Assembly: GCA_007375535.1 (NCBI GenBank)
Contig: VMEM01000001.1
Location: forward strand, 39,462 to 103,461
From: Parcubacteria group bacterium LiPW_41
GTDB taxonomy: Bacteria > Patescibacteriota > Minisyncoccia > UBA6257 > GWB1-50-10
DNA: 64,000 bases
Direction: 5' to 3'
A model generated the notes under the pieces. The model was not told the origin of the DNA, ran no database searches, and was given only the letters and a program-made list of their open reading frames with translations. Below are positions 3,072 to 56,058 of this stretch, in pieces (within the stretch, counting starts at the first letter, position 1; every line of letters begins with the position of its first letter). Both the position numbers and the translations under genes were made by a program.

Positions 3072-3085
3072 ATGTAAATTATAGC

Positions 3086-3385
3086 AAACGGAGAGAGCGA
3101 AATGAATATGCAAAGTATATTCATTTCCGAACGAAGTGAAGATAAAAGCGAAGCTTTATAGCAAATGGAATGAGGAAATGGACACTATGTGTACATTTCC
3201 GAATGAAATGCAGTTACAAGCAAAGCTTTATAGCAAACGGAGAGAGCGAAATGAATATGCAAAGTATATTCATTTCCGAACGAGTGCAGCTGCACGAAGT
3301 GCTATAGCAAGTGAAGAGAGGAAAATGAATACGAAGAAATTTATTTTCCGAACGAACGTAGCTGCACGAAGTGCTATACACTATT
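3086..3385. repeat. Tandem array of four ~74-bp units, each carrying a GGAAATG...CATTTCC hairpin
   Basis: Units start at about 3086, 3164, 3236 and 3310 and each begins TATAGCAAA. Units 1 and 3 are identical over 56 nt and include GAAATGAATAT-gcaaagt-ATATTCATTTC. Confidence 0.7.
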
Positions 3386-5997: not shown

Positions 5998-6267
5998 GCG
6001 CTCGGATACCCTTCGAGTCCTAAAATACAAATACAAAAAATCGCTCTTCGAGCGATATTTTGTATTTGTGCCCTCGTGAGGACTTTCCTCACCCGTCGCT
6101 TTCGCTCCTCCTTTGGAATCCTGGGTTCCTCGCTTCCGCTCATCCTCGACAAGCTCGGATTCGCTTTTCGCATTCGCGCGCTCGGATACCCTTCGAGTCC
6201 TAAAAATACAAATACAAAAAATCGCTCTTCGAGCGATATTTTGTATTTGTGCCCTCGTGAGGACTCG
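5998..6267 (-). repeat. tRNA-Arg trailer element, containing two 87-bp near-identical direct repeats
   Basis: The direct repeats are at 5998-6084 and 6178-6267. Each carries the last 17 nt of tRNA-Arg, a hairpin ACAAATACAAAA…TTTTGTATTTGT and an antisense T-arm (AGGACTCGAAGG). The 93-bp GC-rich spacer contains GAGCGAAAGCGACGG. Confidence 0.8.
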
Positions 6268-6321
6268 AACCTCAATTACGAGATCCGCAATCTCGCGTCC
6301 TATCCATTGAACGACGAGGGC
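6250..6321 (-). tRNA. tRNA-Arg, anticodon GCG as read
   Basis: Hand-folded cloverleaf with acceptor GCCCTCG/CGAGGGC, T-loop GGTTCGAGTCC and anticodon loop TTGCGGA. No encoded CCA. Confidence 0.75.
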
Positions 6322-7568: not shown

Positions 7569-9038
7569 TTAGTCTAGAAACACTAGATGATTTCCAATTC
7601 GTATATCTGATTCACACTCTACAAGCATTCCCACCTCCATGTCCTTCTCTGCTTCTGCAACATCCTTTTTATTTGATTGAAGATTGAGAATTCTTCCCTC
7701 TCCCGTTTTTCTCGTTCCATGCCACACTTCAAATGATTCATTTCTCAATATTGGACCACACAACACTTTTCCACCAATCACTCGCTCTTTTCCTTTTGGT
7801 TGTCCAAACACTCCAAGAATTTCAAGTGTTCTCTTTTCTTTTTCAATTGCGGTTTTTGCATATTCAGTAAGTGCATCAACAAGTTCATAAATAATATCTG
7901 AAGTAATAATATTTATTTTTTTTGTCTCACGCATGTTTTGAGCTGCTTTATCAATTTTTGTGTGAAACCCAATGATAGTTGCTTTCATCCCCTCTGCATC
8001 CTTTGTATCATTTTCAGTAATTGAACCAACAGAAGCTTTTATAATAATAATCGGAAGTGTAGTAACAAGTGATTCAATAGTATCTTTTAATACCTCAAGC
8101 GATCCAAGCTCATCTGCTTTCAAGAACAACGGAACCCTTTTTGATACATCATCTTCTGCAATCAAACTTTTTGTCACCTCGTGCTGTTCTCGTTCAAATT
8201 GTTCTAATGATGTACGGAGTACTTTCTCGTCTCTATGTGCACAAAATACCTCACCCACTTTTGGAGAATTTTCAAATCCAAATACAATTGCCGGTGCACT
8301 TGGAATTATTTCTTTTGCAGTTTTTCCTAAATAGTTTTCAAGTATTTTTACTTTTCCAATTGCAGTATGGGTTGCAATCATAGCTCCTTGCTCAAGTGAT
8401 CCATTTTTTACAATTACACTCGTCATCACACCACGTTTCGCATCCGATTTTACCGAAATGACAACGCCTGACGAAACATGATCTCCCGTACAATGGATAT
8501 CTTCAAGTTCTGATGCAAGAAGTAAAAGATCAAGTAGATCGGAAACACCCTCCCCTGTTTTTGCAGAAATTGCATGCCATGAAACATCCCCTCCTCGTCC
8601 CTCAAGATACACCCCTAATTGCATTAAATCATTAATTGCTTTATCAATATCTGCACCAGGTTTATCTATTTTGTTTATAGCAACAACAAATGGAACTTTT
8701 TCAGCAAGAATATATTTCAATGCATCTTTTGTTTGTGGTTTTACGCCATCATCTGCTGCTACAACTAAAATTGCTAAATCAGCAACACGTGCTCCACGAG
8801 CGCGCATCTTTGAAAATGCTTCATGTCCTGGTGTATCAATAAAAGTTATTTTTTGTCCCGCGTGTTCAATTTCGTATGCACCGATTGATTGAGTAATTCC
8901 TCCCGCCTCACGAAGTGCAACATTGGTACTTCGAATATAATCAAGTAATGTTGTTTTTCCATGATCAACATGACCCATAATAACCGCTATTGGCGGTCTT
9001 CGTTCTGGATTTTTTTGTTCTACTTTTTTGGGGGTCAT
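7569..9038 (-). CDS. infB: Translation initiation factor IF-2, short form without the long N-terminal region
   Basis: G-domain motif GHVDHGKTTLLD and a full IF-2 C-terminal domain architecture. Confidence 0.9.
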   Translation of the reverse strand: MTPKKVEQKNPERRPPIAVIMGHVDHGKTTLLDYIRSTNVALREAGGITQSIGAYEIEHAGQKITFIDTPGHEAFSKMRARGARVADLAILVVAADDGVKPQTKDALKYILAEKVPFVVAINKIDKPGADIDKAINDLMQLGVYLEGRGGDVSWHAISAKTGEGVSDLLDLLLLASELEDIHCTGDHVSSGVVISVKSDAKRGVMTSVIVKNGSLEQGAMIATHTAIGKVKILENYLGKTAKEIIPSAPAIVFGFENSPKVGEVFCAHRDEKVLRTSLEQFEREQHEVTKSLIAEDDVSKRVPLFLKADELGSLEVLKDTIESLVTTLPIIIIKASVGSITENDTKDAEGMKATIIGFHTKIDKAAQNMRETKKINIITSDIIYELVDALTEYAKTAIEKEKRTLEILGVFGQPKGKERVIGGKVLCGPILRNESFEVWHGTRKTGEGRILNLQSNKKDVAEAEKDMEVGMLVECESDIRIGNHLVFLD

Positions 9039-9059
9039 AATAATGGGAAAATACCTTCG

Positions 9060-9286
9060 AAAGTTGCTTCGCTTTGAAATAATTAAAAAATGTACATTTT
9101 TTAATATGTAGTCCCAAGGGGAATCCTTTCAACTAATCACTCGCCGTCGCTCGTGATTGTTTCAAGCCTGGGCTCACGGTGTATTCTACTGAATACACAT
9201 CGCTCCGCCCTTCGTTTCCCCACACGAAACAAGAAATTGTTTCGTTTTGGGATAATTAAAAAAATCTAAAAATTTTTTTAATCAGT
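9060..9286 (-). repeat. tRNA-Glu trailer element
   Basis: The distal end carries TAGTCCCAAGGGGAATC (9109-9125), a copy of the tRNA-Glu 3' end, with similar A/T hairpin flanks. The core contains GGGGAAACG, the hairpins GTGTATTC/GAATACAC and CGAAACAA/TTGTTTCG, and GAGCGACGGCGAG. Confidence 0.75.
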
Positions 9287-9356
9287 AGTCCCAAGGGGAA
9301 TCGAACCCCTATTTCCGCCGTGAAAGGGCGATGTCCTAACCGTTAGACGATGGGAC
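9287..9356 (-). tRNA. tRNA-Glu(UUC)
   Basis: Anticodon loop CTTTCAC and T-loop GGTTCGATTCC. Resembles canonical bacterial tRNA-Glu. Confidence 0.8.
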
Positions 9357-9367
9357 CAAACTGGGTG

Positions 9368-9454
9368 CGGAGGCGGAAGGATTCGAACCTTCGGAGGAGT
9401 TCCCCCCTCGACTTCTTAGCAGGAAGCCGCTTTCGACCGCTCAGCCACGCCTCC
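9368..9454 (-). tRNA. tRNA-Ser(GCU), type II
   Basis: Anticodon loop CTGCTAA, a long variable arm, discriminator G and acceptor GGAGGCG. Confidence 0.8.
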
Positions 9455-9571
9455 ACCCACATAACAGAGTGTACGATAAATATTCAATTTATTCAAGAAA
9501 CTAATACTTGGTAAACACATAATACTATCACGCTTTACGCGTCATCCTAATATAAGATATAATTTTTATAT

Positions 9572-10075
9572 ATGTCGAAGAGAAAGTGGACTCAAAAACA
9601 ACTCGAAGAAGCAATTAATTCTTCAACAAGCAATCGACAGGTTTTAAAAAAGTTGGGATTAAAGGAGGCGGGAGGAAATTATAGCCAAATAAAAAAATAC
9701 TCAAAAGAATTTAAAATCGATACTAGCCATTTCAAAGGTCAAGCGTGGAACAAAGGAAAGAAGGGACTAGGGAAGCCAAGAATCCCTTTATCAGAAATTT
9801 TGGTAGAAAATAGTAATTTCCAAAGTTTTAAATTAAAAAAAAGGTTATTTGCAGAAAAATTAAAATCTGAGTATTGTGAACACTGTGGGTGGGCAAAAAA
9901 ATCAAAAGATGGTAGGATTCCTCTTGAGCTCGATCATATAAATGGAAGAAGAAACGACAACAGAATAGAGAACCTTCGTATTCTTTGTCCAAATTGCCAC
10001 TCATTACAACCAACACATAGAGGTAAAAACATAAAGACTGCCCAGATGGCGGAACGGTATACGCGCAACACTTAA
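9572..10075 (+). CDS. HNH homing-endonuclease-like protein
   Basis: HNH motif CEHCGW…LELDHINGRRNDNRIENLRILCPNCHSL. The last 36 nt of the ORF overlap tRNA-Leu. Confidence 0.75.
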   Translation: MSKRKWTQKQLEEAINSSTSNRQVLKKLGLKEAGGNYSQIKKYSKEFKIDTSHFKGQAWNKGKKGLGKPRIPLSEILVENSNFQSFKLKKRLFAEKLKSEYCEHCGWAKKSKDGRIPLELDHINGRRNDNRIENLRILCPNCHSLQPTHRGKNIKTAQMAERYTRNT

Positions 10076-10122
10076 AATGTTGTGACCCAACGGTCTTGTG
10101 GGTTCGAATCCCACTCTGGGCA
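10040..10122 (+). tRNA. tRNA-Leu(UAA), type II
   Basis: Acceptor GCCCAGA/TCTGGGC, anticodon loop CTTAAAA and a long variable arm. Confidence 0.8.
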
Positions 10123-10350
10123 CAAATTCTACAACACCCTTCATGGGTGTTGTAGAATTTATTCATCAAGGGATTCGAAGGATATTCGAGCGCCCGAATG
10201 GGAAGAGTGAGTAAAATGAACGAAAGCGAGAAACCAAGGCTTCGGAGGAGGCACGAGAGTGCCGGAGGAGAAGAAATCCAACGTCGACCTACCAGTGAAT
10301 AAACCAAACACAAAACAATACCGCCAGTCCTTGGACTGGCGGTATTTTTA
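10123..10350 (+). repeat. tRNA-Leu trailer: terminator hairpin, a divergent GC-rich structured element, and a second terminator
   Basis: Hairpin TTCTACAACACCC/GGGTGTTGTAGAA, then the antisense T-arm AAGGGATTCGAAGG, GAACGAAAGCGAG, the hairpin GGCAC-GAGA-GTGCC, then ACCGCCAGTCC/GGACTGGCGGT with a T-run. Confidence 0.6.
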
Positions 10351-11001
10351 TTTTGCTTCTTTTTTTTCTTTCTTAAACAACTGATATGAATAAACAAAAA
10401 GTCCTATAATTCCGAAAATGAGTGGAATAAGAAACACAAGAAATGAGACAGTGGGAAATACAACACCAAGACATGCAACAACCCCTATAATTTTAAATAC
10501 TTTCCCTCCGAGTTTATGCGTTTTATCCCAAACCATTTCACTTGAAAGTGTCCATGGATTTCGAATACCCATAGTCCAATTCTGTTTTACCCGTTCAATA
10601 AGGAATCCCAATCCAATAAACAAGAAGCCAAAGAGAAACGGAAACACACGAGCGGGATCAATCCACGCTACAAGATTTGTTCCGATGATAAATAGTTGAA
10701 GGAGAAAAAAGAATGAACAGAGAAGAACAAGAAACGCATCATATATTCCCCTCATCTTTTCAATCACCTCTTTTTTTGGATCAAAATGGGGTACTGCAAC
10801 AAGAATTATGAGTAATACAAGTAAGATAATTGGAACAAATAAAATACCCCACAACTTCGACATGTATCCATTTACTTCCCCCATCGCCCCCCAGTGCGAC
10901 GCAATCTCGTCGGGAAGTACTGGGTAAAAATAAACCCCAACAAGTAGCGAGAGAACAATAATACCTAATGAAATTGCTACACCTTTAGTAAAAATCTTCA
11001 T
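10348..11001 (-). CDS. SdpI/YhfL-family membrane protein
   Basis: DUF1648-like YPVLPDEIASHW and the SdpI motif GIRNPWTLSSEMVWDKTH. Multi-TM. Confidence 0.7.
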   Translation of the reverse strand: MKIFTKGVAISLGIIVLSLLVGVYFYPVLPDEIASHWGAMGEVNGYMSKLWGILFVPIILLVLLIILVAVPHFDPKKEVIEKMRGIYDAFLVLLCSFFFLLQLFIIGTNLVAWIDPARVFPFLFGFLFIGLGFLIERVKQNWTMGIRNPWTLSSEMVWDKTHKLGGKVFKIIGVVACLGVVFPTVSFLVFLIPLIFGIIGLFVYSYQLFKKEKKEAK

Positions 11002-11063
11002 AATTTCTATTATAGTACCACCTACTACACAAAAATTAAATTGTCTGATATTCTAATCCAGTT

Positions 11064-11151
11064 GGAAGGTTGGCAGAGTGGTCGAATGCGCCGCACTTGA
11101 AATGCGGTATGCCGAAAGGCATCGGAGGTTCGAATCCTCCACCTTCCGCCA
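11064..11151 (+). tRNA. tRNA-Ser(UGA), type II, with encoded CCA
   Basis: Acceptor GGAAGGT/ACCTTCC, anticodon loop CTTGAAA, a long variable arm, and an encoded 3' GCCA. Confidence 0.8.
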
Positions 11152-11155
11152 ACAT

Positions 11156-11190
11156 AAAAAGTACACCACTTGGTGTACTTTTTATGTTTT
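11156..11190. terminator. Hairpin AGTACACCA/TGGTGTACT with A/T flanks
   Basis: Perfect 9-bp stem. Confidence 0.6.
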
Positions 11191-11372
11191 TGATGTGTGG
11201 ATTCGAACCGCAGGCTCCCTATTTTCTTAGTGAGCGAAGCGAGCTTAGAAAATAGCAGTGTCGCACATTGTGCGACCCGCAGTCATTATTTGAGAACGTA
11301 GGTCTCGAGTTCAGCAGAACGAGAGGAGAATCACTAACTTGTAAGCTCATTCATGCGATATATAATTGCTAG
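11186..11372 (+). repeat. Degenerate trailer-element copy after tRNA-Ser(UGA)
   Basis: Begins with the antisense T-arm GTGGATTCGAACC. Contains GTGAGCGAAGCGAGC, the hairpin GTCGCAC att GTGCGAC, and GGTCTCGAG. Confidence 0.45.
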
Positions 11373-11921
11373 GTGCAATACATAACATTTTTCTTTCTCA
11401 TTATCACACTCCTAGTTATTACTGGAGTCATTTATTCACTTTGGCGACTCTTGTTTAAAAAGAATCATGCTCCATTCATCCCAATCCCACATGACGCAAT
11501 TCCGTCACTTGTGGAACATGCTGACATAAATAAAGGAGATGTTGTGTATGATCTTGGGTGTGGAGATGCACGAATACTAAAAATATTAGCGAAAAAATAT
11601 TCTGATGCTCAATTCATAGGAATTGAAAAGGCATTATTCCCCTATATAATTGCAAAAATTTCTTCACTTCGATTTCCAAATATAACAATACGACGAAAAA
11701 ATTTCTTTAAGATACCAATTGCAAATGCAACAGTAGTGATAACCTATTTATTTCCAAGCGTTATGGATCTTTTGCTTCCAAAATTTGAAAAAGAACTTCA
11801 CAACACAAAACTCCTCTCATTTGATTTTCCCTTCTCAAAAAAAGAATATGAAACAATGTATGTAATAAAGGAGCGACAAGGGAAACTTGGATCAAAGATA
11901 TTTATATACCGATTTGAATAA
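11373..11921 (+). CDS. Class I SAM-dependent methyltransferase with an N-terminal TM anchor
   Basis: Motif I VVYDLGCGDARIL. Confidence 0.65.
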   Translation: MQYITFFFLIITLLVITGVIYSLWRLLFKKNHAPFIPIPHDAIPSLVEHADINKGDVVYDLGCGDARILKILAKKYSDAQFIGIEKALFPYIIAKISSLRFPNITIRRKNFFKIPIANATVVITYLFPSVMDLLLPKFEKELHNTKLLSFDFPFSKKEYETMYVIKERQGKLGSKIFIYRFE

Positions 11922-12070
11922 AAAATTGTTTTAGCGTATCATTTCACCATATAATATGAATAAGAAAAATAAACTTGCAAAAAAGAAACATTCGAAGAAA
12001 GCAGGAAAAAAGATAAATTTGCGCGCTCGATAAAACTTTATAAAAAACACCCCACAATTGTGGGATGTTT

Positions 12071-12676
12071 TTATTTATACAACTCACAGATCGCATCAAT
12101 CTGTTTATGCAAATATTCTCCGCGCCACTTATCCTTTTTAGGTAATCGTTTTGTGAGCAATGAAACAAGTGGTAATAAATGATTGCGCGTCTCCTCAATC
12201 TGAGTTTTTTGTTTTTCTCTTGTGCAGTTTTTCAATGTTCGAAGATTATGTAATCGATCACACAACTTCACTAAAATTGTTTTGTTGTCTCCATATATTG
12301 AAAGTCGCTTGAAATAACCTTCTTTTGGTTTCTTTGTAAGAAGTTTCAATCCAATAACTACTTCCTTTCCAAAATTTAACTCAATTCGATACGGAGAAAG
12401 GATGTGTGAATCCTCTAGCACGTCGTGTAACAATGCCATAATAATTGTCTGCGCATCATTCACCTTCAATTCTTCTATTAAAATATGAGCAACTGATTTT
12501 GGATGTTCAAAATATCGGGTCCCGTCGTCTCTCTCTTGGCCACGATGTCCATATTTTGAAAGAATATACGCAGTCTCAATTGCCTCAAGTTCTTTTGGAG
12601 ACATTATTGGCTCCAACTTTGCCATAAACTCCACACGACCAAGATCAATGTATCCATCAGTGTTTGGCTGCTTCAT
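12071..12676 (-). CDS. HD-domain hydrolase of the RelA/SpoT type, similar to the small alarmone hydrolases
   Basis: HD motif LLHDVLED and the downstream DRLHNLRTL. Confidence 0.65.
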   Translation of the reverse strand: MKQPNTDGYIDLGRVEFMAKLEPIMSPKELEAIETAYILSKYGHRGQERDDGTRYFEHPKSVAHILIEELKVNDAQTIIMALLHDVLEDSHILSPYRIELNFGKEVVIGLKLLTKKPKEGYFKRLSIYGDNKTILVKLCDRLHNLRTLKNCTREKQKTQIEETRNHLLPLVSLLTKRLPKKDKWRGEYLHKQIDAICELYK

Positions 12677-12700
12677 TGTTATTAGTATAATTGAGAACTA

Positions 12701-13885
12701 TTAATCAATCACCTCCCTTCTTAGCCGTTCAGGAATTCTAACGAGAATCTCATAAGGGATCGTTCCACACAAACCCGCTATAGAAGTGACAGAGTTTTTA
12801 TTTGATAACTCCTTACTTATCACACAGACCTCGTCTTCCTCTTTTATATTGAAAACTGAAGACACATCAACACTCACCATATTCATACTCACCCTCCCAA
12901 TAATTGAGCAAACGATATTTTGAATATAAATTGTACCAGAGTTAGAAAGTCGACGATCAATACCCTCAAAATATCCAACAGGAATTATTGCGATTTTCAT
13001 TTCTTGATTGGCGGAAAATGTTGCATTATATCCGACAAAATCACCTCGTTTTATTGTTTTAATTCCTACAACCACCGAAAACATCTCAAGCGCAGGAATG
13101 AGGTTTAATTTCCTTTCAGGAACCGGATCAAACCCATATAAACCAATCCCAAGACGAACAACATTTGCATCAAATTGCTTTATATATTGAGTTCCCGCTG
13201 TCGCGCTGATATGGAAATAGCGAATAGCATTAAACTTCGAACGAAATATTGGAACAACGGTGTTCCAAATAGTCTTTTGTCTCTCTACATGTAAGGAATT
13301 TTCAACATCAGCATCAGCAAGATGAGAACAGACTCCATCGATATTGATGTTTTTATTTGATTGAATAAGAGAAATGACATAATCAATATCTTCATATCGA
13401 ATTCCTTGCCGATTCATGCCGGTATCACACTTAATATGAAATATTTGTGGTTGTTTTAATGTTTCAGCAATTTCTCGTACTTGATGTGGAGTAGAAAGTG
13501 TAAAAATAATATTTTTATCGGTATTTTTTATAATATTTGATAAAAATGAATATCCTATCACTAGTATTGGTGTTTTAATATTTTCATTGCGAAGCATAAG
13601 TGCCTCATAGTATGAATCAACGACAAAAAATGGGACGCTTTTTTCGTCAAGAATTTTTGCAACAGGAATTAATCCATGTCCATACGCATTACTTTTTAAC
13701 ACTGGAGCAATCTTTATATCAGATTGTATATTTGAAAACACCTCATAATTATGAAGTAACGCTGATCGAGAAATCTTAATACGCACCAACGGCTCATAAT
13801 CAGTTAATGATTTTCTAAATTTACGAATAAAGTTTCGAAGAAAAACGAGCATATTATTATATATTATTTTCGCTCTCAAACTCAT
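12701..13885 (-). CDS. alr: Alanine racemase
   Basis: PLP-lysine motif VLKSNAYGHG. Confidence 0.85.
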   Translation of the reverse strand: MSLRAKIIYNNMLVFLRNFIRKFRKSLTDYEPLVRIKISRSALLHNYEVFSNIQSDIKIAPVLKSNAYGHGLIPVAKILDEKSVPFFVVDSYYEALMLRNENIKTPILVIGYSFLSNIIKNTDKNIIFTLSTPHQVREIAETLKQPQIFHIKCDTGMNRQGIRYEDIDYVISLIQSNKNINIDGVCSHLADADVENSLHVERQKTIWNTVVPIFRSKFNAIRYFHISATAGTQYIKQFDANVVRLGIGLYGFDPVPERKLNLIPALEMFSVVVGIKTIKRGDFVGYNATFSANQEMKIAIIPVGYFEGIDRRLSNSGTIYIQNIVCSIIGRVSMNMVSVDVSSVFNIKEEDEVCVISKELSNKNSVTSIAGLCGTIPYEILVRIPERLRREVID

Positions 13886-14660
13886 GATATTCTAAATCAA
13901 ACTGGAAATTATTTTTAAAGTATTCTTTTGTCTCCTCAATGGTTGTAAATCCCAACTCATTTTTTCCACTAAACAAATCAAAATAGGCATCTCTATATTT
14001 TTGCAACTTAAACGGGATTTTTTTTGGATCTACATCCCCGCACCGATTCATCTCAATCCATCCATTTTTCGAATATATTCTTTCTCTATTTTTTCCACTA
14101 ACACTCTCATTTATTTGGTTTTCACTTAAAAATATCTGAAGATCTCCCTCACTCGGCAAAACTCCTTTATTAAAAAGAATAGGAAGATTTTCTTGCTTTT
14201 CTTTATCAAGCTCAAACGCATCAAGAAAATCTGGATGCGAGTGCGCATAAAAAAATCCATTATTCTTTTTACCAACACCATGAGTACGCGCCCCAACAGA
14301 AAAAAAGAAAACAGAGTCGCCAACTTTTTCAACTGCTAATTCATATTGATTTTTTTTCCTAACAAACTCTTCAAAAATAGTATTCACCAATAAATTTTCT
14401 TTTGTCTCGACAAAAAAACCAACTTGGTCTTTTGTATAATTTGGAACATTTGGTAGTAAGGCCCAAATATCTTCTACATTTTTCTCCCTAAGTGGGCCTT
14501 CAATACTTGAAACGGGAAGTTTTTGTTTCCACAAATCAAACTCATTTTTTTCTTCTTCTGAATATTTTCCTAATCCAGATTTTTCCATGAGTTTCTTTAC
14601 TTGAACTTCTTTTTCAATATTAGGAGGAAACATTGGAAACTGATCAAACTTTTGTTTCAT
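13857..14660 (-). CDS. Hypothetical protein
   Basis: 267-aa ORF whose stop overlaps the alr start. No recognisable motif. Confidence 0.45.
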   Translation of the reverse strand: MKQKFDQFPMFPPNIEKEVQVKKLMEKSGLGKYSEEEKNEFDLWKQKLPVSSIEGPLREKNVEDIWALLPNVPNYTKDQVGFFVETKENLLVNTIFEEFVRKKNQYELAVEKVGDSVFFFSVGARTHGVGKKNNGFFYAHSHPDFLDAFELDKEKQENLPILFNKGVLPSEGDLQIFLSENQINESVSGKNRERIYSKNGWIEMNRCGDVDPKKIPFKLQKYRDAYFDLFSGKNELGFTTIEETKEYFKNNFQFDLEYHEFESENNI

Positions 14661-14782
14661 TATTCAATAATAGAAGAACCTGTGAATTTAGCCAACGAAA
14701 TAGGTTGTGGTGTTCTATCAGGTGTAAAACCCTAAAAAAGTAAAATGACCTACTGGGATTGCACAGATGCTCATTGTTTTTG

Positions 14783-14853
14783 TGGACCTACGGGGAGTCG
14801 AACCCCGACTTAGCGCATGCCATGCGCTTATTCTACCATTGAATTATAGGCCC
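14783..14853 (-). tRNA. tRNA-Ala(GGC)
   Basis: G3:U70 in the acceptor (GGGCCTA/TAGGTCC), anticodon loop ATGGCAT and T-loop GGTTCGACTCC. Confidence 0.8.
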
Positions 14854-15530
14854 ATATTTTTTCTTAATATTTCAAAGATAACTAAAAATTCATTAAAAAT
14901 ATTAGCAGAAAAATAATCTATTCGACACACGCCTTTATAATTCATTTTTCGTGATTTTTTATTAATAGAACGAGGATCAACTCGCGCTTTATAAAAACAA
15001 GATAAAGGAATATTAGTCAGCTTCGACCAAAAAATTTCCAACTTTTCGATGTTTTGATCATCCCTACACTGTAGGGTACACCTAAACTTACTCTCGTCAA
15101 CCTCATAACAACTCCTTAAAAGATTTAGAAATAATTTAATAATTAATGGATCAGAGTTGCCAATGGTAATACTCCCCTTTTTTGTTTTAGATCCCTCAGC
15201 TAAATAAAGCATAGCAAGAGTAATTTTTTTTGTTTTTTTGTCGTTTAATTCACCAATAACCCACTTATTTTCATTTAATAAATTTTCTAGGTATTTTTTT
15301 CTTTTCTCTTTTTTTACTTCCAGTGCTTTCTGTCTCGCCACCTTCAAATCTTTTACTCGTTTTGTTTCTAATTTTTGTTTTTGAAGATTTGAAAGTTCTA
15401 TACCTTTTAACCAAAATGAAATCGTACTTTTTGGAATGTTGGAACCAAGTGCTCTATTAATTTGCAGAAATGAATAACCCTTTTTTCTCAGGGCTATCAC
15501 ACGTTCTCTCATATTTTTTTGGGTGCTCAC
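14844..15530 (-). CDS. LAGLIDADG-family homing-endonuclease-like protein with an N-terminal HTH
   Basis: Single LAGLIDADG motif LAMLYLAEGSK. Its stop overlaps the 5' end of tRNA-Ala by 10 nt. Confidence 0.7.
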   Translation of the reverse strand: MSTQKNMRERVIALRKKGYSFLQINRALGSNIPKSTISFWLKGIELSNLQKQKLETKRVKDLKVARQKALEVKKEKRKKYLENLLNENKWVIGELNDKKTKKITLAMLYLAEGSKTKKGSITIGNSDPLIIKLFLNLLRSCYEVDESKFRCTLQCRDDQNIEKLEIFWSKLTNIPLSCFYKARVDPRSINKKSRKMNYKGVCRIDYFSANIFNEFLVIFEILRKNMGL

Positions 15531-15569
15531 TATTCAATTGTACCACAGAAGTCATCCATGTCCAAAAAT

Positions 15570-15755
15570 TTTGTGGGCGATAAGGAATCGAACGTCGTCT
15601 CATCAGAATGAGACTCCCACGAACCCAGCGGTTCGTGCGCTCCGCCACTGGGAAACTCCCGTTTCCCCGACCCCTTTCCCAGTTCGAGTCCTGTATATCA
15701 CAAGATATAAAAACAACGCATTTGCTTTAGAAATAGTGCATTGTTTTTATCTATG
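15570..15755 (-). repeat. tRNA-Val(GAC) trailer element
   Basis: In tRNA orientation: a terminator hairpin, the antisense T-arm ATACAGGACTCGAAC, GGGAAAGGGGTCGGGGAAACGGGAGTTTCCC, the hairpins CACGAACC/GGTTCGTG and GTCTCAT/ATGAGAC, and a sense end GTTCGATTCCTTATCGCCCAC. Confidence 0.75.
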
Positions 15756-15829
15756 TGGGCGATACAGGACTCGAACCTGTGACCTTTACAATGTCAATGT
15801 AACGCTCTAACCAGCTGAGCTAATCGCCC
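15756..15829 (-). tRNA. tRNA-Val(GAC)
   Basis: Acceptor GGGCGAT, anticodon loop TTGACAT and T-loop GGTTCGAGTCC. Confidence 0.8.
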
Positions 15830-15834
15830 TTATA

Positions 15835-16155
15835 TTATTTTTCCTTCTTTTCTTTTTTCAATTCTTTCACCGCTTCAGTAAGTGAAACATCAGGATGTTT
15901 TGCAACCGCCTCAAGCATATCTGCAAGCTTCACATATCCGTCATTGAGTGGAAGCTCTTTAGCCTTCATAAACCAATGCTTCTTTTTTCCTCCATCGGCT
16001 TTTTCCAGCTCCAACGCAATCATATCTGGCGTCTCATCATTCTTTAATTTCCTCCCGAGATCTGCCTCTGTTTTTTCAAAGCGTTTATATACTTCTTTTT
16101 TATCCTCCTTCTTCAATTTGTCCATGCCAAAGCTGAAGTGATCAAACATAATCAC
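15835..16155 (-). CDS. Hypothetical small charged protein
   Basis: 106-aa ORF, Lys/Glu-rich. Confidence 0.4.
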   Translation of the reverse strand: MIMFDHFSFGMDKLKKEDKKEVYKRFEKTEADLGRKLKNDETPDMIALELEKADGGKKKHWFMKAKELPLNDGYVKLADMLEAVAKHPDVSLTEAVKELKKEKKEK

Positions 16156-16224
16156 ATAATACCTGAGACATAAAAAAATACAAATCTTTACTCTAATCTA
16201 AGATTAATCTATAAATAGACAGAA

Positions 16225-16296
16225 GCCCTTGTAGTTCAACGGATAGAACAGTGCCGTCCTAAGGCGAAGATGGGAGTTCGATTCTCTCCAAGGGCA
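16225..16296 (+). tRNA. tRNA-Arg(CCU)
   Basis: Acceptor GCCCTTG/CAAGGGC, anticodon loop GTCCTAA and T-loop GTTCGATTC. Confidence 0.75.
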
Positions 16297-16300
16297 CATA

Positions 16301-16387
16301 GGAGGGGTGGCTGAGTGGTCGAAGGCACACGACTCGAAATCGTGCAGGGGTGAAAGCCCCTCGAGAGTTCAAATCTCTCCCCCTCCG
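16301..16387 (+). tRNA. tRNA-Ser(CGA), type II
   Basis: Acceptor GGAGGGG/CCCCTCC, anticodon loop CTCGAAA, a long variable arm and discriminator G. Confidence 0.8.
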
Positions 16388-16590
16388 CTAATATCAAAAC
16401 AATACACTTCATGTGTATTGTTTTATATTCGGAGAGATTTAAACGGGAAAGGGGTCGGGAAAACGGAAGTTTTCCCGTGGTGGAAGTACTGAAACCGCAA
16501 GGTGTCAGAAAATTTCGTCTGCGAAATTTTGTTCAATTCCCTCCCCCTCCACAAACAAAAAACACCATACAAAGTGGTGTTTTTAATTTT
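16388..16590 (+). repeat. tRNA-Ser(CGA) trailer element
   Basis: A terminator hairpin, the antisense T-arm GGAGAGATTTAAAC, GGGAAAGGGGTCGGGAAAACGGAAGTTTTCCCG, TGGTGGAAG, the hairpin CTGAAACC-GCAA-GGTGTCAG, a pseudo-anticodon arm ATTTCG-TCTG-CGAAAT, the sense end GTTCAATTCCCTCCCCCTCCAC, and a second terminator. Confidence 0.8.
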
Positions 16591-17257
16591 TTTCATTTTT
16601 CACAATATTTCCATCAAACAGTGTTATTACTCGATCAGTATACTGCACATATTCTGGTTCGTGGGTAACCATAATTATTGTTTGCCCATCTGCGTGCAAT
16701 TCTTTAAATGTTTTCAAAATAGAAATAGACGTGTCATTATCAAGATTTGCTGTTGGTTCGTCAGCAAATAATATTTTCGGATTGTGTCCCATTGCACGAG
16801 CAATAGAAACACGTTGTTGTTCTCCTCCGGAAAGCTGATTGGGAAGATTATTAAACTTTTCTTTTAGTTCAACGCGCTCTAACACTCTTGCTGATATTTT
16901 TCTTGCGTCAATTTTATTTATTCCTTGTTCCAAAAGTGGAATCATTACATTTTCAATCGCATTCAATTCTGGAATAAGTGCATAATCTTGAAACACATAT
17001 CCAAGTTGAAATAGTCGTAATATGGTCCGCTCCCTATCAGTTAATATGTCTGTGTTCTTCCCTCCAATCTCAATGGTTCCTGACGTTGGTCGATCAAGAA
17101 GACTCAACTGATACATAAGAGTACTTTTTCCAGAACCCGAACGCCCAATGATTGAAATAAATTCTCCGTCGTCAACATCAAAATCAACTCCTTTTAAAAC
17201 GGTGAGCTCTGAGTTTCCACTTTTGAATTTTTTTATGATTTTTCTTGCTTGTATCAT
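16583..17257 (-). CDS. ABC transporter ATP-binding protein of the FtsE/LolD/MacB type
   Basis: Walker A GRSGSGKST and ABC signature LSGGEQQR. Confidence 0.85.
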   Translation of the reverse strand: MIQARKIIKKFKSGNSELTVLKGVDFDVDDGEFISIIGRSGSGKSTLMYQLSLLDRPTSGTIEIGGKNTDILTDRERTILRLFQLGYVFQDYALIPELNAIENVMIPLLEQGINKIDARKISARVLERVELKEKFNNLPNQLSGGEQQRVSIARAMGHNPKILFADEPTANLDNDTSISILKTFKELHADGQTIIMVTHEPEYVQYTDRVITLFDGNIVKNEKN

Positions 17258-38339: not shown

Positions 38340-39392
38340 ATGCAAATGATGCGAATACTGGCAATCGAGACATCATGTGATGAGACCGCATTTTCACTTG
38401 TTGAAGCAAGTGGTGGACTTTTGCGTCCAACATTTTCTGTTTTAGAAAACCTCGTGACATCTCAAATCGCCATTCATCGCCCCTTCGGCGGAGTTGTTCC
38501 CAACTTGGCGAAACGAGAACATTTAGTTAACCTTCCAATTCTTTTTGAACAGATAAAAGAAAAAATTGGGAAAAAGAAAATCGATATTGTTGCAGTAACC
38601 GTTGGTCCAGGACTCGAACCAGCGTTATGGACTGGGGTTGGTTTTGCAAAAGAAATTCATAAAAAATATTTTCCAAAATCAAAACTAATTGGAGTAAATC
38701 ACATGGAGGGACACCTTTACAGTTTTTTGCTTTCGCAAAAAACTGAAAAATCAAATTTCAAATTTCAAATTTCAAAACTAAAAGAGTTATTTCCCGCAAT
38801 TGCACTTGTGGTAAGTGGTGGACACACAATAATTATTCGAATGGATTCACTCACAAAAAGAAAGAAACTTGGAGAAACACGAGACGATGCAGTCGGAGAA
38901 GCATTTGATAAGGTTGCCCGACTTTTAAATCTCCCTTACCCGGGAGGTCCAGAAATCGAACGGTGTGCAAAAGAAGGAAATCCTCACGCAATAGAATTTC
39001 CTCGTCCAATGATGCACGATAAAAATTATGAATTTAGTTTCTCAGGACTCAAAACCTCAGCACTCTATTATATGAGAGATCACAAAACTGCAAATATTAA
39101 TGATGTGGCAGCAAGTTTTCAAGAAGCAGCTATTGATGTACTAAGACACAAAGCAACACGAGCTATAAAAGAATTTAATGCACACTCACTACTTCTTTCT
39201 GGTGGCGTTGCAGCAAGCAAAGCACTCCGCACAGCACTCGAAGAACGATGTAAAGAATTGAACATAAGATTCTTTGCTCCATCAATTCAATACAACACCG
39301 ACAATGCAACCATGATTGCAGTCGCGGCATATATAAATTTTCTAGAAAAGAAAAACAGGGCCCTACGAGCAAATGGAAATATGGCGCTATAA
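38340..39392 (+). CDS. tsaD: tRNA N6-adenosine threonylcarbamoyltransferase
   Basis: N-terminus MRILAIETSCDETAFSLVE and Kae1/TsaD fold motifs. Confidence 0.85.
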   Translation: MQMMRILAIETSCDETAFSLVEASGGLLRPTFSVLENLVTSQIAIHRPFGGVVPNLAKREHLVNLPILFEQIKEKIGKKKIDIVAVTVGPGLEPALWTGVGFAKEIHKKYFPKSKLIGVNHMEGHLYSFLLSQKTEKSNFKFQISKLKELFPAIALVVSGGHTIIIRMDSLTKRKKLGETRDDAVGEAFDKVARLLNLPYPGGPEIERCAKEGNPHAIEFPRPMMHDKNYEFSFSGLKTSALYYMRDHKTANINDVAASFQEAAIDVLRHKATRAIKEFNAHSLLLSGGVAASKALRTALEERCKELNIRFFAPSIQYNTDNATMIAVAAYINFLEKKNRALRANGNMAL

Positions 39393-55670: not shown

Positions 55671-55743
55671 GGGCCAGTAGCTTAGTGGCTAAAGCACCGA
55701 GCTTATACCTCGGCGACCGAAGGTTCGAGTCCTTCCTGGCCCA
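55671..55743 (+). tRNA. tRNA-Ile, anticodon UAU as read
   Basis: Acceptor GGGCCAG/CTGGCCC and anticodon stem-loop CCGAG-CTTATAC-CTCGG. Confidence 0.7.
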
Positions 55744-55769
55744 CAGAACGGGCATTACAAACAAAATAT

Positions 55770-55841: not shown

Positions 55842-56058
55842 CACAATAAAACATCATATTTCTCAATATGATGTTTTTGTATGAGGGGATTGAACAAGAA
55901 GGGGTGTTGGGGAAACGTTTGTTTCCCCATGGAGGAAGTATTGAAACCGAGTGGTTTCAAAGCGCAGTCTCGCCCGCAAGACGAGCAGTGAAATTTCCCC
56001 TCAACGCCCACACAAAAACAAAAACATCCTTTTCTAGGATGTTTTTGTTTTCTATTTT
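55842..56058 (+). repeat. tRNA-Val(UAC) trailer element
   Basis: Terminator AAAACATCATAT/ATATGATGTTTT, the perfect antisense T-arm GAGGGGATTGAAC, GGGGAAACGTTTGTTTCCCC, TGGAGGAAG, the hairpin TTGAAACC-GAGT-GGTTTCAA, GTCTCG…CGAG, a 20-nt copy of the tRNA 3' end TCCCCTCAACGCCCACACAA (56004-56023), and a second similar terminator. Confidence 0.8.

What the first reader, a model, noticed from the sequence alone, without database searches (positions are those of the whole stretch)
5998..6267. Arg-GCG locus carries an 87-bp near-perfect direct repeat that includes the tRNA 3' end
The two copies (5998-6084 and 6178-6267) each contain the last 17 nt of tRNA-Arg (GTGCCCTCGTGAGGACT on the plus strand), a long hairpin ACAAATACAAAA-AATCGCTCTTCGAGCGAT-ATTTTGTATTTGT, and the antisense T-arm AGGACTCGAAGG. 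They flank a 93-bp GC-rich spacer carrying GAGCGAAAGCGACGG and CCCAGG, motifs shared with the Glu copy. Near-identity of the two repeats implies recent duplication or active homogenisation. The distal repeat is followed by another antisense T-arm copy but no second core.
Basis: seen in the sequence. Interest (0 to 1): 0.7.

Follow-up and report, generated by a model that had tools for sequence, protein, structure and literature searches.

The report
Small structured insert duplicating tRNA ends
The repeat behind tRNA-Arg is real and marks a roughly 180-base, protein-less, folded element that sits behind about a third of the tRNA genes in this group of tiny-genome bacteria, comes and goes between close relatives, and each time carries its own copy of the host tRNA's 3' end and a terminator.

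Summary
Windows 5998-6084 and 6178-6265 are identical apart from a 1-nt indel. Each holds the last 17 nt of tRNA-Arg(GCG), a terminator hairpin and an antisense T-arm, around a 93-nt spacer of 57% GC.

It is not a one-off duplication. The same layout occurs at 7 of the 13 tRNA genes in the window and at about 33 of 104 tRNA genes in related Paceibacterota contigs. Read on the tRNA strand, the layout is: tRNA, terminator hairpin, inverted copy of that tRNA's T-arm (antiT), a GC-rich module X of 90-160 nt, a second copy of that tRNA's 3' end, then a terminator.

X comes in at least four or five types. Each folds into a 3- or 4-way junction with strong compensatory covariation, and no Rfam family matches. 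The same X type sits behind different tRNAs, and different types sit behind the same tRNA. Contigs 99.6-99.97% identical differ by one unit. Displaced original 3' ends decay.

Best reading (about 50%): a new family of miniature, non-autonomous elements that insert at tRNA 3' ends. The mobilising enzyme was not found, and the insertion mechanism is inferred. Main rivals are a host non-coding RNA and a guide-RNA-like element.

The parts
6250..6321 (-). tRNA-Arg(GCG), intact. Its last 17 nt (6249-6265) lie inside the proximal repeat.
   Evidence: ARAGORN; Rfam tRNA 60 bits.
6178..6265 (-). Proximal repeat copy (88 nt). It holds the tRNA 3' end from T-loop nt 58 to the discriminator plus one base (6249-6265), the terminator hairpin (6208-6248), the antisense T-arm (6192-6201) and the first 14 nt of module X (6178-6191).
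6085..6201 (-). Antisense T-arm plus folded GC-rich module X, type B. The helix P1 is formed by AGGACT (6196-6201) pairing with AGUCCU in the distal tRNA-end copy. The 93-nt 'spacer' 6085-6177 is the part of X that is not repeated.
   Evidence: Homologous type B modules sit at L013 tRNA-Arg and L008 tRNA-Ser(CGA).
5998..6084 (-). Distal repeat copy (87 nt). It holds a second copy of the tRNA 3' end (6068-6084), the terminator hairpin (6027-6067), the antisense T-arm (6012-6021) and 14 nt of a truncated second X (5998-6011).
   Evidence: The distal junction is reproduced in the independent assembly L019.
6221..6237 (-). Core of the intrinsic-terminator-like hairpin ATCGCUC-GAA-GAGCGAU followed by a U-run. 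An identical copy lies at 6040-6056.
9108..9302 (-). Sister element behind tRNA-Glu(UUC), type C. tRNA-end copies at 9285-9302 and 9108-9125; antisense T-arm plus X at 9126-9221.
15573..15694 (-). Sister element behind tRNA-Val(GAC), type A: antisense T-arm (15682-15694), X, and a diverged copy of the tRNA 3' end.
16431..16552 (+). Sister element behind tRNA-Ser(CGA), type A. The distal tRNA-end copy has 2 mismatches.
55883..56011 (+). Sister element behind tRNA-Val(UAC), type A-like.
10170..10289 (+). Degenerate type B element behind tRNA-Leu(UAA). The distal tRNA-end copy has decayed.
11195..11334 (+). Element of a further type (E) behind tRNA-Ser(UGA). The distal tRNA-end copy has decayed.

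Best explanation
The repeat is the junction signature of a small, protein-less element that lives at the 3' end of tRNA genes.

One unit is 150-180 bp. It consists of:
- a copy of the host tRNA's 3' end, from T-loop position about 57-61 to the discriminator;
- an intrinsic-terminator hairpin;
- an inverted copy of the tRNA T-arm (antiT);
- a GC-rich module X that folds into a conserved 3- or 4-way junction. The junction is closed by antiT pairing with the next copy of the tRNA end.

Behind tRNA-Arg(GCG) there is one complete unit and then a second unit truncated 14 nt into X. That arrangement makes the 87/88-nt repeat.

Shown here: the family, its fold, its exclusive link to tRNA genes, its gain and loss between near-identical genomes, and its turnover. 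The newest unit lies next to the tRNA, and the displaced original tRNA end and terminator lie distal and decay.

Inferred: the unit enters at the T-loop/3' end of the tRNA gene, so the tRNA continues into an element-borne 3' end and terminator. The insertion is therefore harmless, and is tolerated only behind the last tRNA of an operon. New units pick up the host's own 3' end and terminator. The antisense T-arm arises by hairpin (snap-back) copying of the tRNA end attached to X, which would explain why it always matches the local tRNA. Insertion is by recombination at the tRNA end, using enzymes supplied in trans. These could be host RecA-type homologous recombination after DNA uptake, or an unidentified recombinase or polymerase.
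For: Recurrence. The layout occurs at 7 of 13 tRNA genes in the window and about 33 of 104 in 12 related contigs. By my estimate, a chance 13-nt copy of the 3' end within 700 nt is expected at under 0.01 per tRNA. Every X copy in the DNA held is next to a tRNA gene.

Mobility and turnover.
- L005 and L006 are 99.6-99.97% identical but differ by one 175-nt unit flanked by a 64-nt repeat.
- Type B sits at Arg-GCG (window, L013), Ser-CGA (L008) and Leu-UAA (window). Type C sits at Glu, Cys, Ala and Val-GAC. Type A sits at eight different tRNAs. In each case antiT and the 3'-end copy match the local tRNA.
- At Ser-CGA, type A is present in the window and L007, but type B in L008.

Order of insertion.
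- In L001, tRNA-Cys is followed by two units and then a decayed 3' end (4 changes) joined to the terminator that directly follows tRNA-Cys in the window.
- In L008, Ser-CGA has a proximal type B unit, and then the terminator and antiT of the type A unit with X deleted.

Fold.
- Type C internal helices: 92% paired, 18 of 20 pairs compensatory, 0 of 500 shuffles as good, slid controls 31-47%.
- Type A: 94% paired, 10 of 20 compensatory.
- G-U pairs favour the tRNA strand, 22 against 8.

Constraint. X is 92.6-94.3% identical between the window and L007, against 73.9% for the IF2 coding sequence.

Operon position. Elements sit behind 7 of 9 operon-terminal tRNAs and 0 of 4 internal ones in the window.

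Inverted copy. It spans the whole tRNA 3' end in L016 Arg and Ser-GCU. One terminator hairpin is the exact reverse complement of its partner, 28/28.

The hairpins score as terminators.
Against: - No integrase, transposase, reverse transcriptase or RNA-guided nuclease was found in the 64-kb window or next to any element. The mobilising activity is therefore unknown.
- No free, circular or phage/plasmid-borne copy was found.
- 'Empty' sites could equally arise by deletion between the direct repeats, so gain was not observed directly.
- At Val-GAC the element looks vertically inherited: three genomes share the same deletion in the distal copy. Yet X stays 93% identical while the terminator has diverged to 78%. 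That fits a host-selected RNA at least as well as a selfish element.
- How a unit first acquires a new tRNA's end without breaking that tRNA is inferred, not shown.
Confidence: 0.5

Rival explanations
1. X is a host non-coding RNA family, a functional 3' external spacer of tRNA transcription units. It would be made by read-through or from a weak promoter, and spread among tRNA loci by occasional duplication and gene conversion. The repeat at tRNA-Arg would be a local tandem duplication of such a gene.
For: - Strong covariation and conserved single-stranded purine-rich joiners such as GGGAARGGGGUC and GUGGYGGAR.
- X is more conserved than the IF2 coding sequence while the adjacent terminator diverges.
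- G-U pairs favour the tRNA strand.
- In L001 and L007 tRNA-Ala follows X(Val-GAC) within about 12-20 nt, so X is probably co-transcribed there.
Against: - Presence or absence differs between 99.6-99.97% identical contigs.
- There are many copies of several unrelated-looking types per genome, and types replace each other at one locus.
- Tandem arrays and truncated remnants occur.
- A terminator precedes X and no sigma-70-like promoter was found at the Arg locus.
- L020 has 11 tRNAs and no element.
Confidence: 0.2
2. X plus the tRNA-end copy is a guide-type RNA. X would be the scaffold and the following 16-20 nt of host tRNA sequence the guide, as in the omega/right-end RNAs of IS200/IS605 transposons. 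The element would be a non-autonomous single-strand transposon that targets the universal T-loop motif GTTC, with its nuclease or transposase encoded elsewhere.
For: - The architecture is a structured scaffold of about 100 nt followed directly by 16-20 nt of flanking host sequence and a terminator.
- The insertion point is always just after the T-loop GTTC(R).
- Folding is strand-specific.
- An internal segment (antiT) is complementary to the flank. This recalls how IS200/IS605 ends recognise their cleavage sites (my own knowledge of IS608).
Against: - No TnpA, TnpB or IscB gene in the window.
- No Rfam omega-RNA-like family matched.
- The supposed guide decays in many resident copies.
- The guide's first bases are paired with antiT.
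- IS200/IS605 elements do not carry a copy of their flank at the other end.
Confidence: 0.1
3. The repeats are scars (attL/attR remnants) of repeated integration and excision or decay of ordinary integrase-encoding prophages or islands at tRNA genes. X would be a leftover attP arm.
For: Direct repeats covering the tRNA 3' end from the T-loop onward, an intact proximal tRNA and a displaced distal copy are the classical signature of integration at tRNA genes.
Against: - Inserts are uniformly 90-160 nt and fall into conserved folded families with covariation. Random deletion remnants would not look like this.
- No integrase fragments were found next to any copy.
- No match in IMG/VR, phage or plasmid collections.
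- The same X sits behind tRNAs of different identity.
Confidence: 0.07
4. The repeat is an assembly artefact, or a meaningless one-off tandem duplication.
For: The source is a short-read metagenome assembly. The independent contig L019 ends inside the repeat hairpin, as assemblers do at repeats.
Against: - The repeat (88 nt) is shorter than the k-mer implied by the contig name (inference).
- L019 reproduces the distal junction exactly.
- The same layout, including 2-unit arrays, occurs in independent assemblies from other samples and species.
Confidence: 0.03

Closest known systems
Integrative elements that target tRNA genes (tyrosine-integrase prophages, ICEs and genomic islands; T-loop sublocation class)
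   Same: A direct repeat spans the tRNA 3' end from the T-loop onward. The tRNA is rebuilt with an element-borne 3' end, and the original end is displaced to the far side. Tandem and nested arrays occur, with the newest element next to the tRNA.
   Different: The element is only 150-180 bp. It has no integrase or any other gene. It also carries a terminator, an inverted copy of the T-arm and a conserved folded module. The same module serves many different tRNAs.
Folded single-strand recombination sites (integron attC sites; the CTX-phi attP(+) hairpin used by host XerCD)
   Same: Structure is conserved rather than sequence. Folding is strand-specific. The stem is imperfect and mimics the duplex target. 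There is no enzyme gene inside the unit, and units form tandem arrays.
   Different: The target is a tRNA T-arm, not attI or dif. No IntI or Xer link was shown. The ends xTCGAAC...GTTCGAT only loosely resemble the attC R boxes (RYYYAAC...GTTRRRY).
MITEs and other miniature non-autonomous elements
   Same: Size is 100-200 bp. They are non-coding, have inverted terminal sequences, occur in many copies per genome and vary in presence between strains.
   Different: The 'terminal repeats' are copies of the local target, not of a parent IS. The duplication is 52-88 nt rather than 2-10 nt. No parent transposon is known.
Omega/right-end RNAs of IS200/IS605 (TnpB, IscB)
   Same: A structured scaffold of about 100-130 nt is followed by about 16-20 nt taken from the flanking host DNA.
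   Different: There is no nuclease or transposase gene nearby. The flank copy decays and is partly base-paired. No sequence or structure match was found.
[quoted passage not shown]
   Same: Structured, protein-less RNA-type inserts associated with tRNA genes in the same phylum.
   Different: Those lie in the anticodon loop (such as position 35/36) and must splice. X lies behind a complete tRNA and a terminator, has no group I core (no Rfam hit), and the distal tRNA end is dispensable.

Membership tests
tRNA-targeting integrative element (tyrosine-integrase type) | A direct repeat containing the 3' part of the tRNA gene flanks the insert, and the proximal tRNA is intact. | tested here: met
tRNA-targeting integrative element (tyrosine-integrase type) | An integrase gene lies inside the element, next to an att site. 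| tested here: not met
   The unit is 150-180 bp with no credible ORF. Neighbouring genes are housekeeping, and no integrase is present in the window.
tRNA-targeting integrative element (tyrosine-integrase type) | An extrachromosomal form (phage, plasmid or circle) carries attP. | tested here: not met
   No copy in IMG/VR, phage or plasmid collections. Circular forms cannot be tested without reads.
MITE | Terminal inverted repeats. | tested here: inconclusive
   antiT and the distal T-arm copy are inverted repeats, but they are target-specific rather than family-specific.
MITE | A short target-site duplication of fixed length (2-10 bp). | tested here: not met
   The duplications are 52-88 nt and variable.
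Integron attC / folded single-strand attP | An imperfect hairpin whose structure, not sequence, is conserved, on one strand. | tested here: met
Integron attC / folded single-strand attP | R''/R' boxes RYYYAAC...GTTRRRY, and a cognate IntI/attI or XerCD/dif partner. | tested here: inconclusive
   The ends read xTCGAAC...GTTCGAT in type A, which is only a partial fit. No IntI or Xer gene is in the window. The rest of the genome was not searched.
IS200/IS605 omega RNA (scaffold plus flank-derived guide) | A scaffold directly followed by 16-20 nt of flanking target sequence. | tested here: met
   (resemblance in architecture only)
IS200/IS605 omega RNA (scaffold plus flank-derived guide) | An adjacent tnpB/iscB (and tnpA) gene, or similarity to known omega-RNA families. 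| tested here: not met
   Rfam; proteins
Group I intron | A catalytic core detectable by the Rfam model, with the insertion interrupting the tRNA. | tested here: not met
   No Intron_gpI hit even at E up to 10. The tRNA is complete upstream of X.
Rho-independent terminator (hairpin part only) | A GC-containing stem-loop followed by a T-run. | tested here: met
Any Rfam 15 family (module X) | A match at or near the gathering score. | tested here: not met

The most novel reading that the evidence does not exclude
X elements are an RNA- or single-strand-based, protein-less mobile element of a new kind. The folded module becomes joined to the 3' end of a tRNA transcript or gene at the conserved, palindromic T-loop. 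It is then copied by a polymerase or reverse transcriptase that snaps back, writing an inverted copy of the target's T-arm. Finally it re-enters the tRNA gene by homology, retargeting itself to any tRNA while always rebuilding the tRNA's 3' end and terminator. A variant of this reading is that X plus the tRNA end is a guide RNA for a nuclease or recombinase encoded elsewhere. Two observations would be footprints of such copying: the excess of changes at the position opposite A58 in the inverted copy, and the flipped terminator hairpin in L013.
Probability: 0.15. Interest if true: 0.9.

Novelty: new variant of a known kind. Interest (0 to 1): 0.72.

Why it matters
Candidate-phyla-radiation bacteria have genomes of 0.5-1 Mb and are thought to carry few mobile elements. 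Here about a third of tRNA genes in one lineage carry a conserved, folded, non-coding insert that turns over between near-identical strains.

If it is a mobile element, it is unusually small and specific. It neutralises its own insertion by bringing a spare tRNA 3' end and a terminator, and it matches itself to each target tRNA. That raises a concrete and testable question about what copies and inserts it.

If it is a host RNA, it is an unrecognised family of structured RNAs, more conserved than a core translation gene.

Either way there are practical consequences. These units create partial-tRNA repeats that break assemblies, and they can be mistaken for prophage att sites by island-finding tools.

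Tried and rejected
- **Rfam.** Gathering thresholds on the whole window, and permissive E-values on the Arg, Val-GAC and 9000-16650 regions, returned only tRNAs and noise.
- **Known ribozymes and group I introns.** No support. A CUGAUGAG string in X(Val-GAC) is only the loop and stem of a hairpin, and it varies in L001.
- **RNase P-like GAGGAAAGUCC in the Arg spacer.** It arises from the junction of X with the tRNA T-loop copy and is absent in other members, so it is coincidence.
- **T-loop intron reading** (the tRNA using the distal 3' end). Rejected because distal copies decay (L001 Cys, L016 Arg, window Ser-CGA, Leu, Ser-UGA).
- **Simple long target-site duplication.** Rejected because proximal and distal terminators are unrelated at L001 Cys, L008 Ser-CGA and other loci.
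- **Viral origin.** Five IMG/VR pattern scans gave nothing or two chance hits in unrelated GC-rich contigs (L012, L023). blastn against phage and plasmid collections gave no match.
- **G-quadruplex in the purine-rich joiner.** The four G-tracts are not conserved.
- **Small ORF in X.** Not conserved, and compensatory changes argue for structure.
- **A T-loop-like 12-mer at 38609.** It lies inside the tsaD gene and is chance.
- **Covariance model of type C.** It finds only its own type strongly, and types D and A only at E of about 0.04-0.07. Common ancestry of the types therefore remains unproven.
- **Literature.** Six full-text searches and two papers read found no description of such elements. 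This is not proof that none exists.

Full report
**1. The observation**

On the tRNA (minus) strand the locus reads as follows:
- tRNA-Arg(GCG), 6321-6250;
- its last 17 nt AGUCCUCACGAGGGCAC (6265-6249), which open a repeat;
- a long hairpin with a terminator-like core, ATCGCUC-GAA-GAGCGAU, and a U-run (6248-6208);
- AGGACUCGAA (6201-6192), the exact reverse complement of the tRNA's own T-loop and 3' T-stem;
- a GC-rich segment running to 6085;
- the same 17 nt, hairpin and antisense T-arm again (6084-6012);
- 14 more nt of the GC-rich segment (to 5998);
- unrelated sequence.

The repeat finder gives exact blocks of 28 and 63 nt, offset by one base. Coordinates were checked by string search. 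The unrepeated 93 nt are 57% GC in a 37% GC window. The hairpins score as intrinsic terminators on both strands, and no sigma-70-like promoter is found. The only correction is that the second copy ends at 6265.

**2. It is one member of a family**

I searched for copies of each tRNA's own sequence elsewhere in the window. Second copies of the 3' end lie downstream of tRNA-Glu and tRNA-Val(UAC). Antisense T-arm copies lie downstream of both tRNA-Val genes. Reading these loci and a wider scan gives one common layout: tRNA, AT-rich terminator hairpin, antisense copy of that tRNA's T-arm ('antiT'), a GC-rich module 'X' of 90-160 nt, a copy of that tRNA's 3' end starting in the T-loop (position about 57-61), and usually a terminator again.

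In the window the layout is complete at Arg-GCG, Glu, Val-GAC, Val-UAC and Ser-CGA. It is degenerate at Leu-UAA and Ser-UGA. These are 7 of the 9 tRNAs that end a tRNA operon. None of the 4 internal tRNAs has it. That fits an insert that brings a terminator.

**3. Relatives**

The organism is a Candidatus Paceibacterota (candidate phyla radiation) bacterium. The flanking IF2 protein is 91% identical to that of MAG JBAZZD01 (L001). The window is part of ENA contig ERZ27284382 k139_334225.

Contigs carrying IF2 at 56-91% identity were fetched. The same layout recurs in them. In 12 clade contigs, about 33 of 104 tRNA genes carry it (after removing cross-matches between neighbouring tRNAs). One contig with 11 tRNAs has none (L020). 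Every sequence similar to any X in the DNA held lies beside a tRNA gene.

**4. Evidence that the units move and turn over**

(a) L005 and L006 are 99.6-99.97% identical. L005 has a 175-nt unit behind tRNA-Glu, bounded by a 64-nt direct repeat. L006 has a single copy of that repeat.

(b) X falls into types by sequence:
- Type B sits behind Arg-GCG (window and L013), Ser-CGA (L008) and Leu-UAA (window).
- Type C sits behind Glu, Cys, Ala-GGC and Val-GAC.
- Type A sits behind Ser-CGA, Leu-UAA, Val-GAC, Val-UAC, Ala-GGC, Arg-GCG, Ser-GCU and Gly-GCC.
- Type D sits behind Arg-GCG in L001 and L008.

In every case antiT and the 3'-end copy are those of the local tRNA.

(c) The same tRNA carries different types in different genomes. 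Ser-CGA has A, B or E. Arg-GCG has B, D, A or E-like.

(d) Arrays are ordered by age.
- In L001, tRNA-Cys is followed by two units. After them comes a 3'-end copy with four substitutions, joined to the terminator and promoter region that directly follow tRNA-Cys in the window.
- In L008, tRNA-Ser(CGA) is followed by a type B unit. After it come the terminator and antiT of the type A unit seen in the window and L007, with X deleted.
- L007 tRNA-Cys keeps only an element-type terminator and 8 nt of antiT.

The functional tRNA therefore uses the newest, element-associated 3' end and terminator, and the displaced originals decay. The Arg locus in the window fits this pattern: one full unit and then a unit truncated 14 nt into X. 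The near-identity of the two copies points to a recent second insertion or a tandem duplication of the unit.

**5. X is a conserved folded module**

RNAalifold on nine type A sequences gives a closing helix P1 (antiT paired with the T-arm copy) and three hairpins, forming a 4-way junction. Ten type C sequences give a 3-way junction, as do four type B sequences.

P1 covaries trivially with tRNA identity, so I left it out of the pair counts:
- Type C internal helices: 92% paired, compensatory changes at 18 of 20 pairs, 0 of 500 shuffles as good, and 31-47% paired when partners are slid.
- Type A internal helices: 94% paired, 10 of 20 compensatory.

G-U pairs on the tRNA strand outnumber A-C pairs, which would be G-U on the other strand, by 22 to 8. 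It is therefore the tRNA-sense strand that folds, whether as RNA or as single-stranded DNA.

Peripheral hairpins are swapped or resized between members. Purine-rich joiners such as GGGAARGGGGUC and GUGGYGGAR, and a hairpin with tandem G-A pairs (GAGC-loop-GCGA), are conserved.

Between the window and L007, X is 92.6% (Val-GAC) and 94.3% (Ser-CGA) identical. The IF2 coding sequence is 73.9% identical, the Val-GAC terminator 78%, and the sequence beyond the distal copy about 50%.

No Rfam family matches any type. A covariance model of type C detects the other types only marginally.

**6. The inverted copy**

In L016 (Arg-GCG, Ser-GCU) the inverted copy covers the whole tRNA 3' end, positions 53-76. 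Elsewhere the acceptor part is deleted or mutated and only the T-arm part remains. The tRNA end, the terminator and antiT thus form one long imperfect hairpin. antiT, X and the next tRNA end form another.

In L013 the proximal terminator hairpin is the exact reverse complement (28/28) of the distal one. This is a flip of the kind produced by hairpin-mediated copying or recombination.

Substitutions in antiT relative to the tRNA concentrate at the position opposite A58, with 4-5 independent changes, mostly T to G. This is a weak signal of unknown meaning.

**7. How it most likely works**

Shown:
- the unit structure;
- the exclusive tRNA association;
- polymorphism;
- the order of old and new copies;
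- the restriction to operon ends;
- the conserved strand-specific fold.

Inferred:
- A unit enters at the T-loop/3' end of a tRNA gene, so the tRNA reads into an element-borne 3' end and terminator.
- Where proximal and distal terminators are alike (Arg in the window and L013, Glu in L005, Cys in L013, Arg in L001/L008), the unit was formed from, or re-entered, the same locus.
- Where the terminators differ, the unit came from another genome's version of that tRNA locus.
- The target-matched antiT is most simply produced by snap-back copying of the tRNA end that is attached to X. The T-loop core TTCGAA/TCGA is palindromic and offers microhomology in both orientations.
- Insertion could use host homologous recombination. 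RecA and RecO are encoded in the window, and the tRNA provides a conserved arm. Alternatively it could use an unidentified recombinase acting on a folded single strand, as with integron attC sites or CTX-phi.

No integrase, transposase, reverse transcriptase or TnpB-like gene is present in the window. No free or viral copy was found. The helper therefore remains unknown, and my confidence in the mobile-element reading is about 0.5.

**8. Rivals**

- **Host non-coding RNA family.** This is the main alternative. It is favoured by the high conservation of X at the apparently orthologous Val-GAC site and by probable co-transcription with tRNA-Ala in L001 and L007. It is disfavoured by strain-level polymorphism, multiple types, replacement, arrays and remnants.
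- **Guide-RNA-like reading** (scaffold plus flank-derived guide, as in IS200/IS605 omega RNAs). The architecture fits, but there is no nuclease gene, and the supposed guide decays.
- **Ordinary prophage att scars.** These do not explain uniform, covarying modules of about 100 nt.
- **Assembly artefact.** This is unlikely, for the reasons given in section 1.

**9. Comparison with what is known**

The unit works like a tRNA-targeting integrative element: an att-like repeat, a rebuilt tRNA and a displaced original end. It fails the membership test for that family because it has no integrase and is 150-180 bp long. It also resembles MITEs, folded single-strand att sites and omega RNAs in single respects only (see the membership table).

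Group I introns are common in Patescibacteria tRNA genes (PMC13011429), but they are a different thing. My literature searches found no description of these units. I therefore rate the finding as a new variant of a known kind, a miniature non-autonomous tRNA-end insertion element, with a modest chance that it is something categorically new.

Noticed in passing
window 9572-10075 (+): A 167-aa ORF with HNH/HNH_3 endonuclease domains lies between the divergent tRNA-Ser(GCU) and tRNA-Leu(UAA) genes and overlaps the first 36 nt of tRNA-Leu. In L001 the two tRNAs are only about 107 nt apart, so the gene is an insertion here. It looks like a free-standing homing endonuclease. Any link to the tRNA-end elements is unknown.
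   Followed up: partly
window 14844-15530 (-): A 228-aa ORF has an N-terminal HTH (weak HTH_SB hit) and a LAGLIDADG-like motif (LAMLYLAEGSK). It is inserted between the distal tRNA-end copy of the Val-GAC element and tRNA-Ala(GGC). In L001 and L007 tRNA-Ala follows the element within about 12-20 nt. This is a second homing-endonuclease-like gene beside tRNA genes.
   Followed up: partly
window 3079-3178 and 3228-3324: A direct repeat of about 100 nt (86% identity, period about 149) lies in the intergenic region upstream of tyrS. Each copy contains a hairpin, GGAAATGAATAT..ATATTCATTTCC.
   Followed up: no
window 55671-55744 (+): A tRNA-Ile with anticodon UAU, which is an uncommon way for bacteria to read AUA. 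It lies directly upstream of tRNA-Val(UAC).
   Followed up: no
L008 about 12975-13010 and 13125-13145 (downstream of tRNA-Arg-GCG at 12859-12931): Two further small GC-rich hairpin insertions are absent from the otherwise near-identical L001 unit: TTTCCGTCCTAGGCGGATCAGCCTTGGGCTGACA in the terminator region, and CCTGCCTGCCGGTAGGCAGG inside the distal tRNA-end copy. They may be another class of miniature insert.
   Followed up: no
antisense T-arm copies in window 9211-9221 and in L001, L005, L008, L014: The base opposite tRNA position A58 is the most often changed loop position of the inverted copy (T to G four times, T to A once; 4-5 independent events, against 1-2 at other loop positions). This could be a misincorporation footprint at a modified A58, selection against the TCGA palindrome, or chance.
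   Followed up: partly
L013, about 7755-7795 and 7927-7967 (downstream of tRNA-Arg-GCG at 7682-7754): The terminator hairpin of the proximal repeat is the exact reverse complement (28/28) of the distal one, while the flanks are direct. This is a flip/flop inversion of a hairpin.
   Followed up: partly
L020 21300-21464: A reverse-transcriptase (RVT_1) gene starts at the edge of a related contig that has 11 tRNA genes and none of the elements.
   Followed up: no
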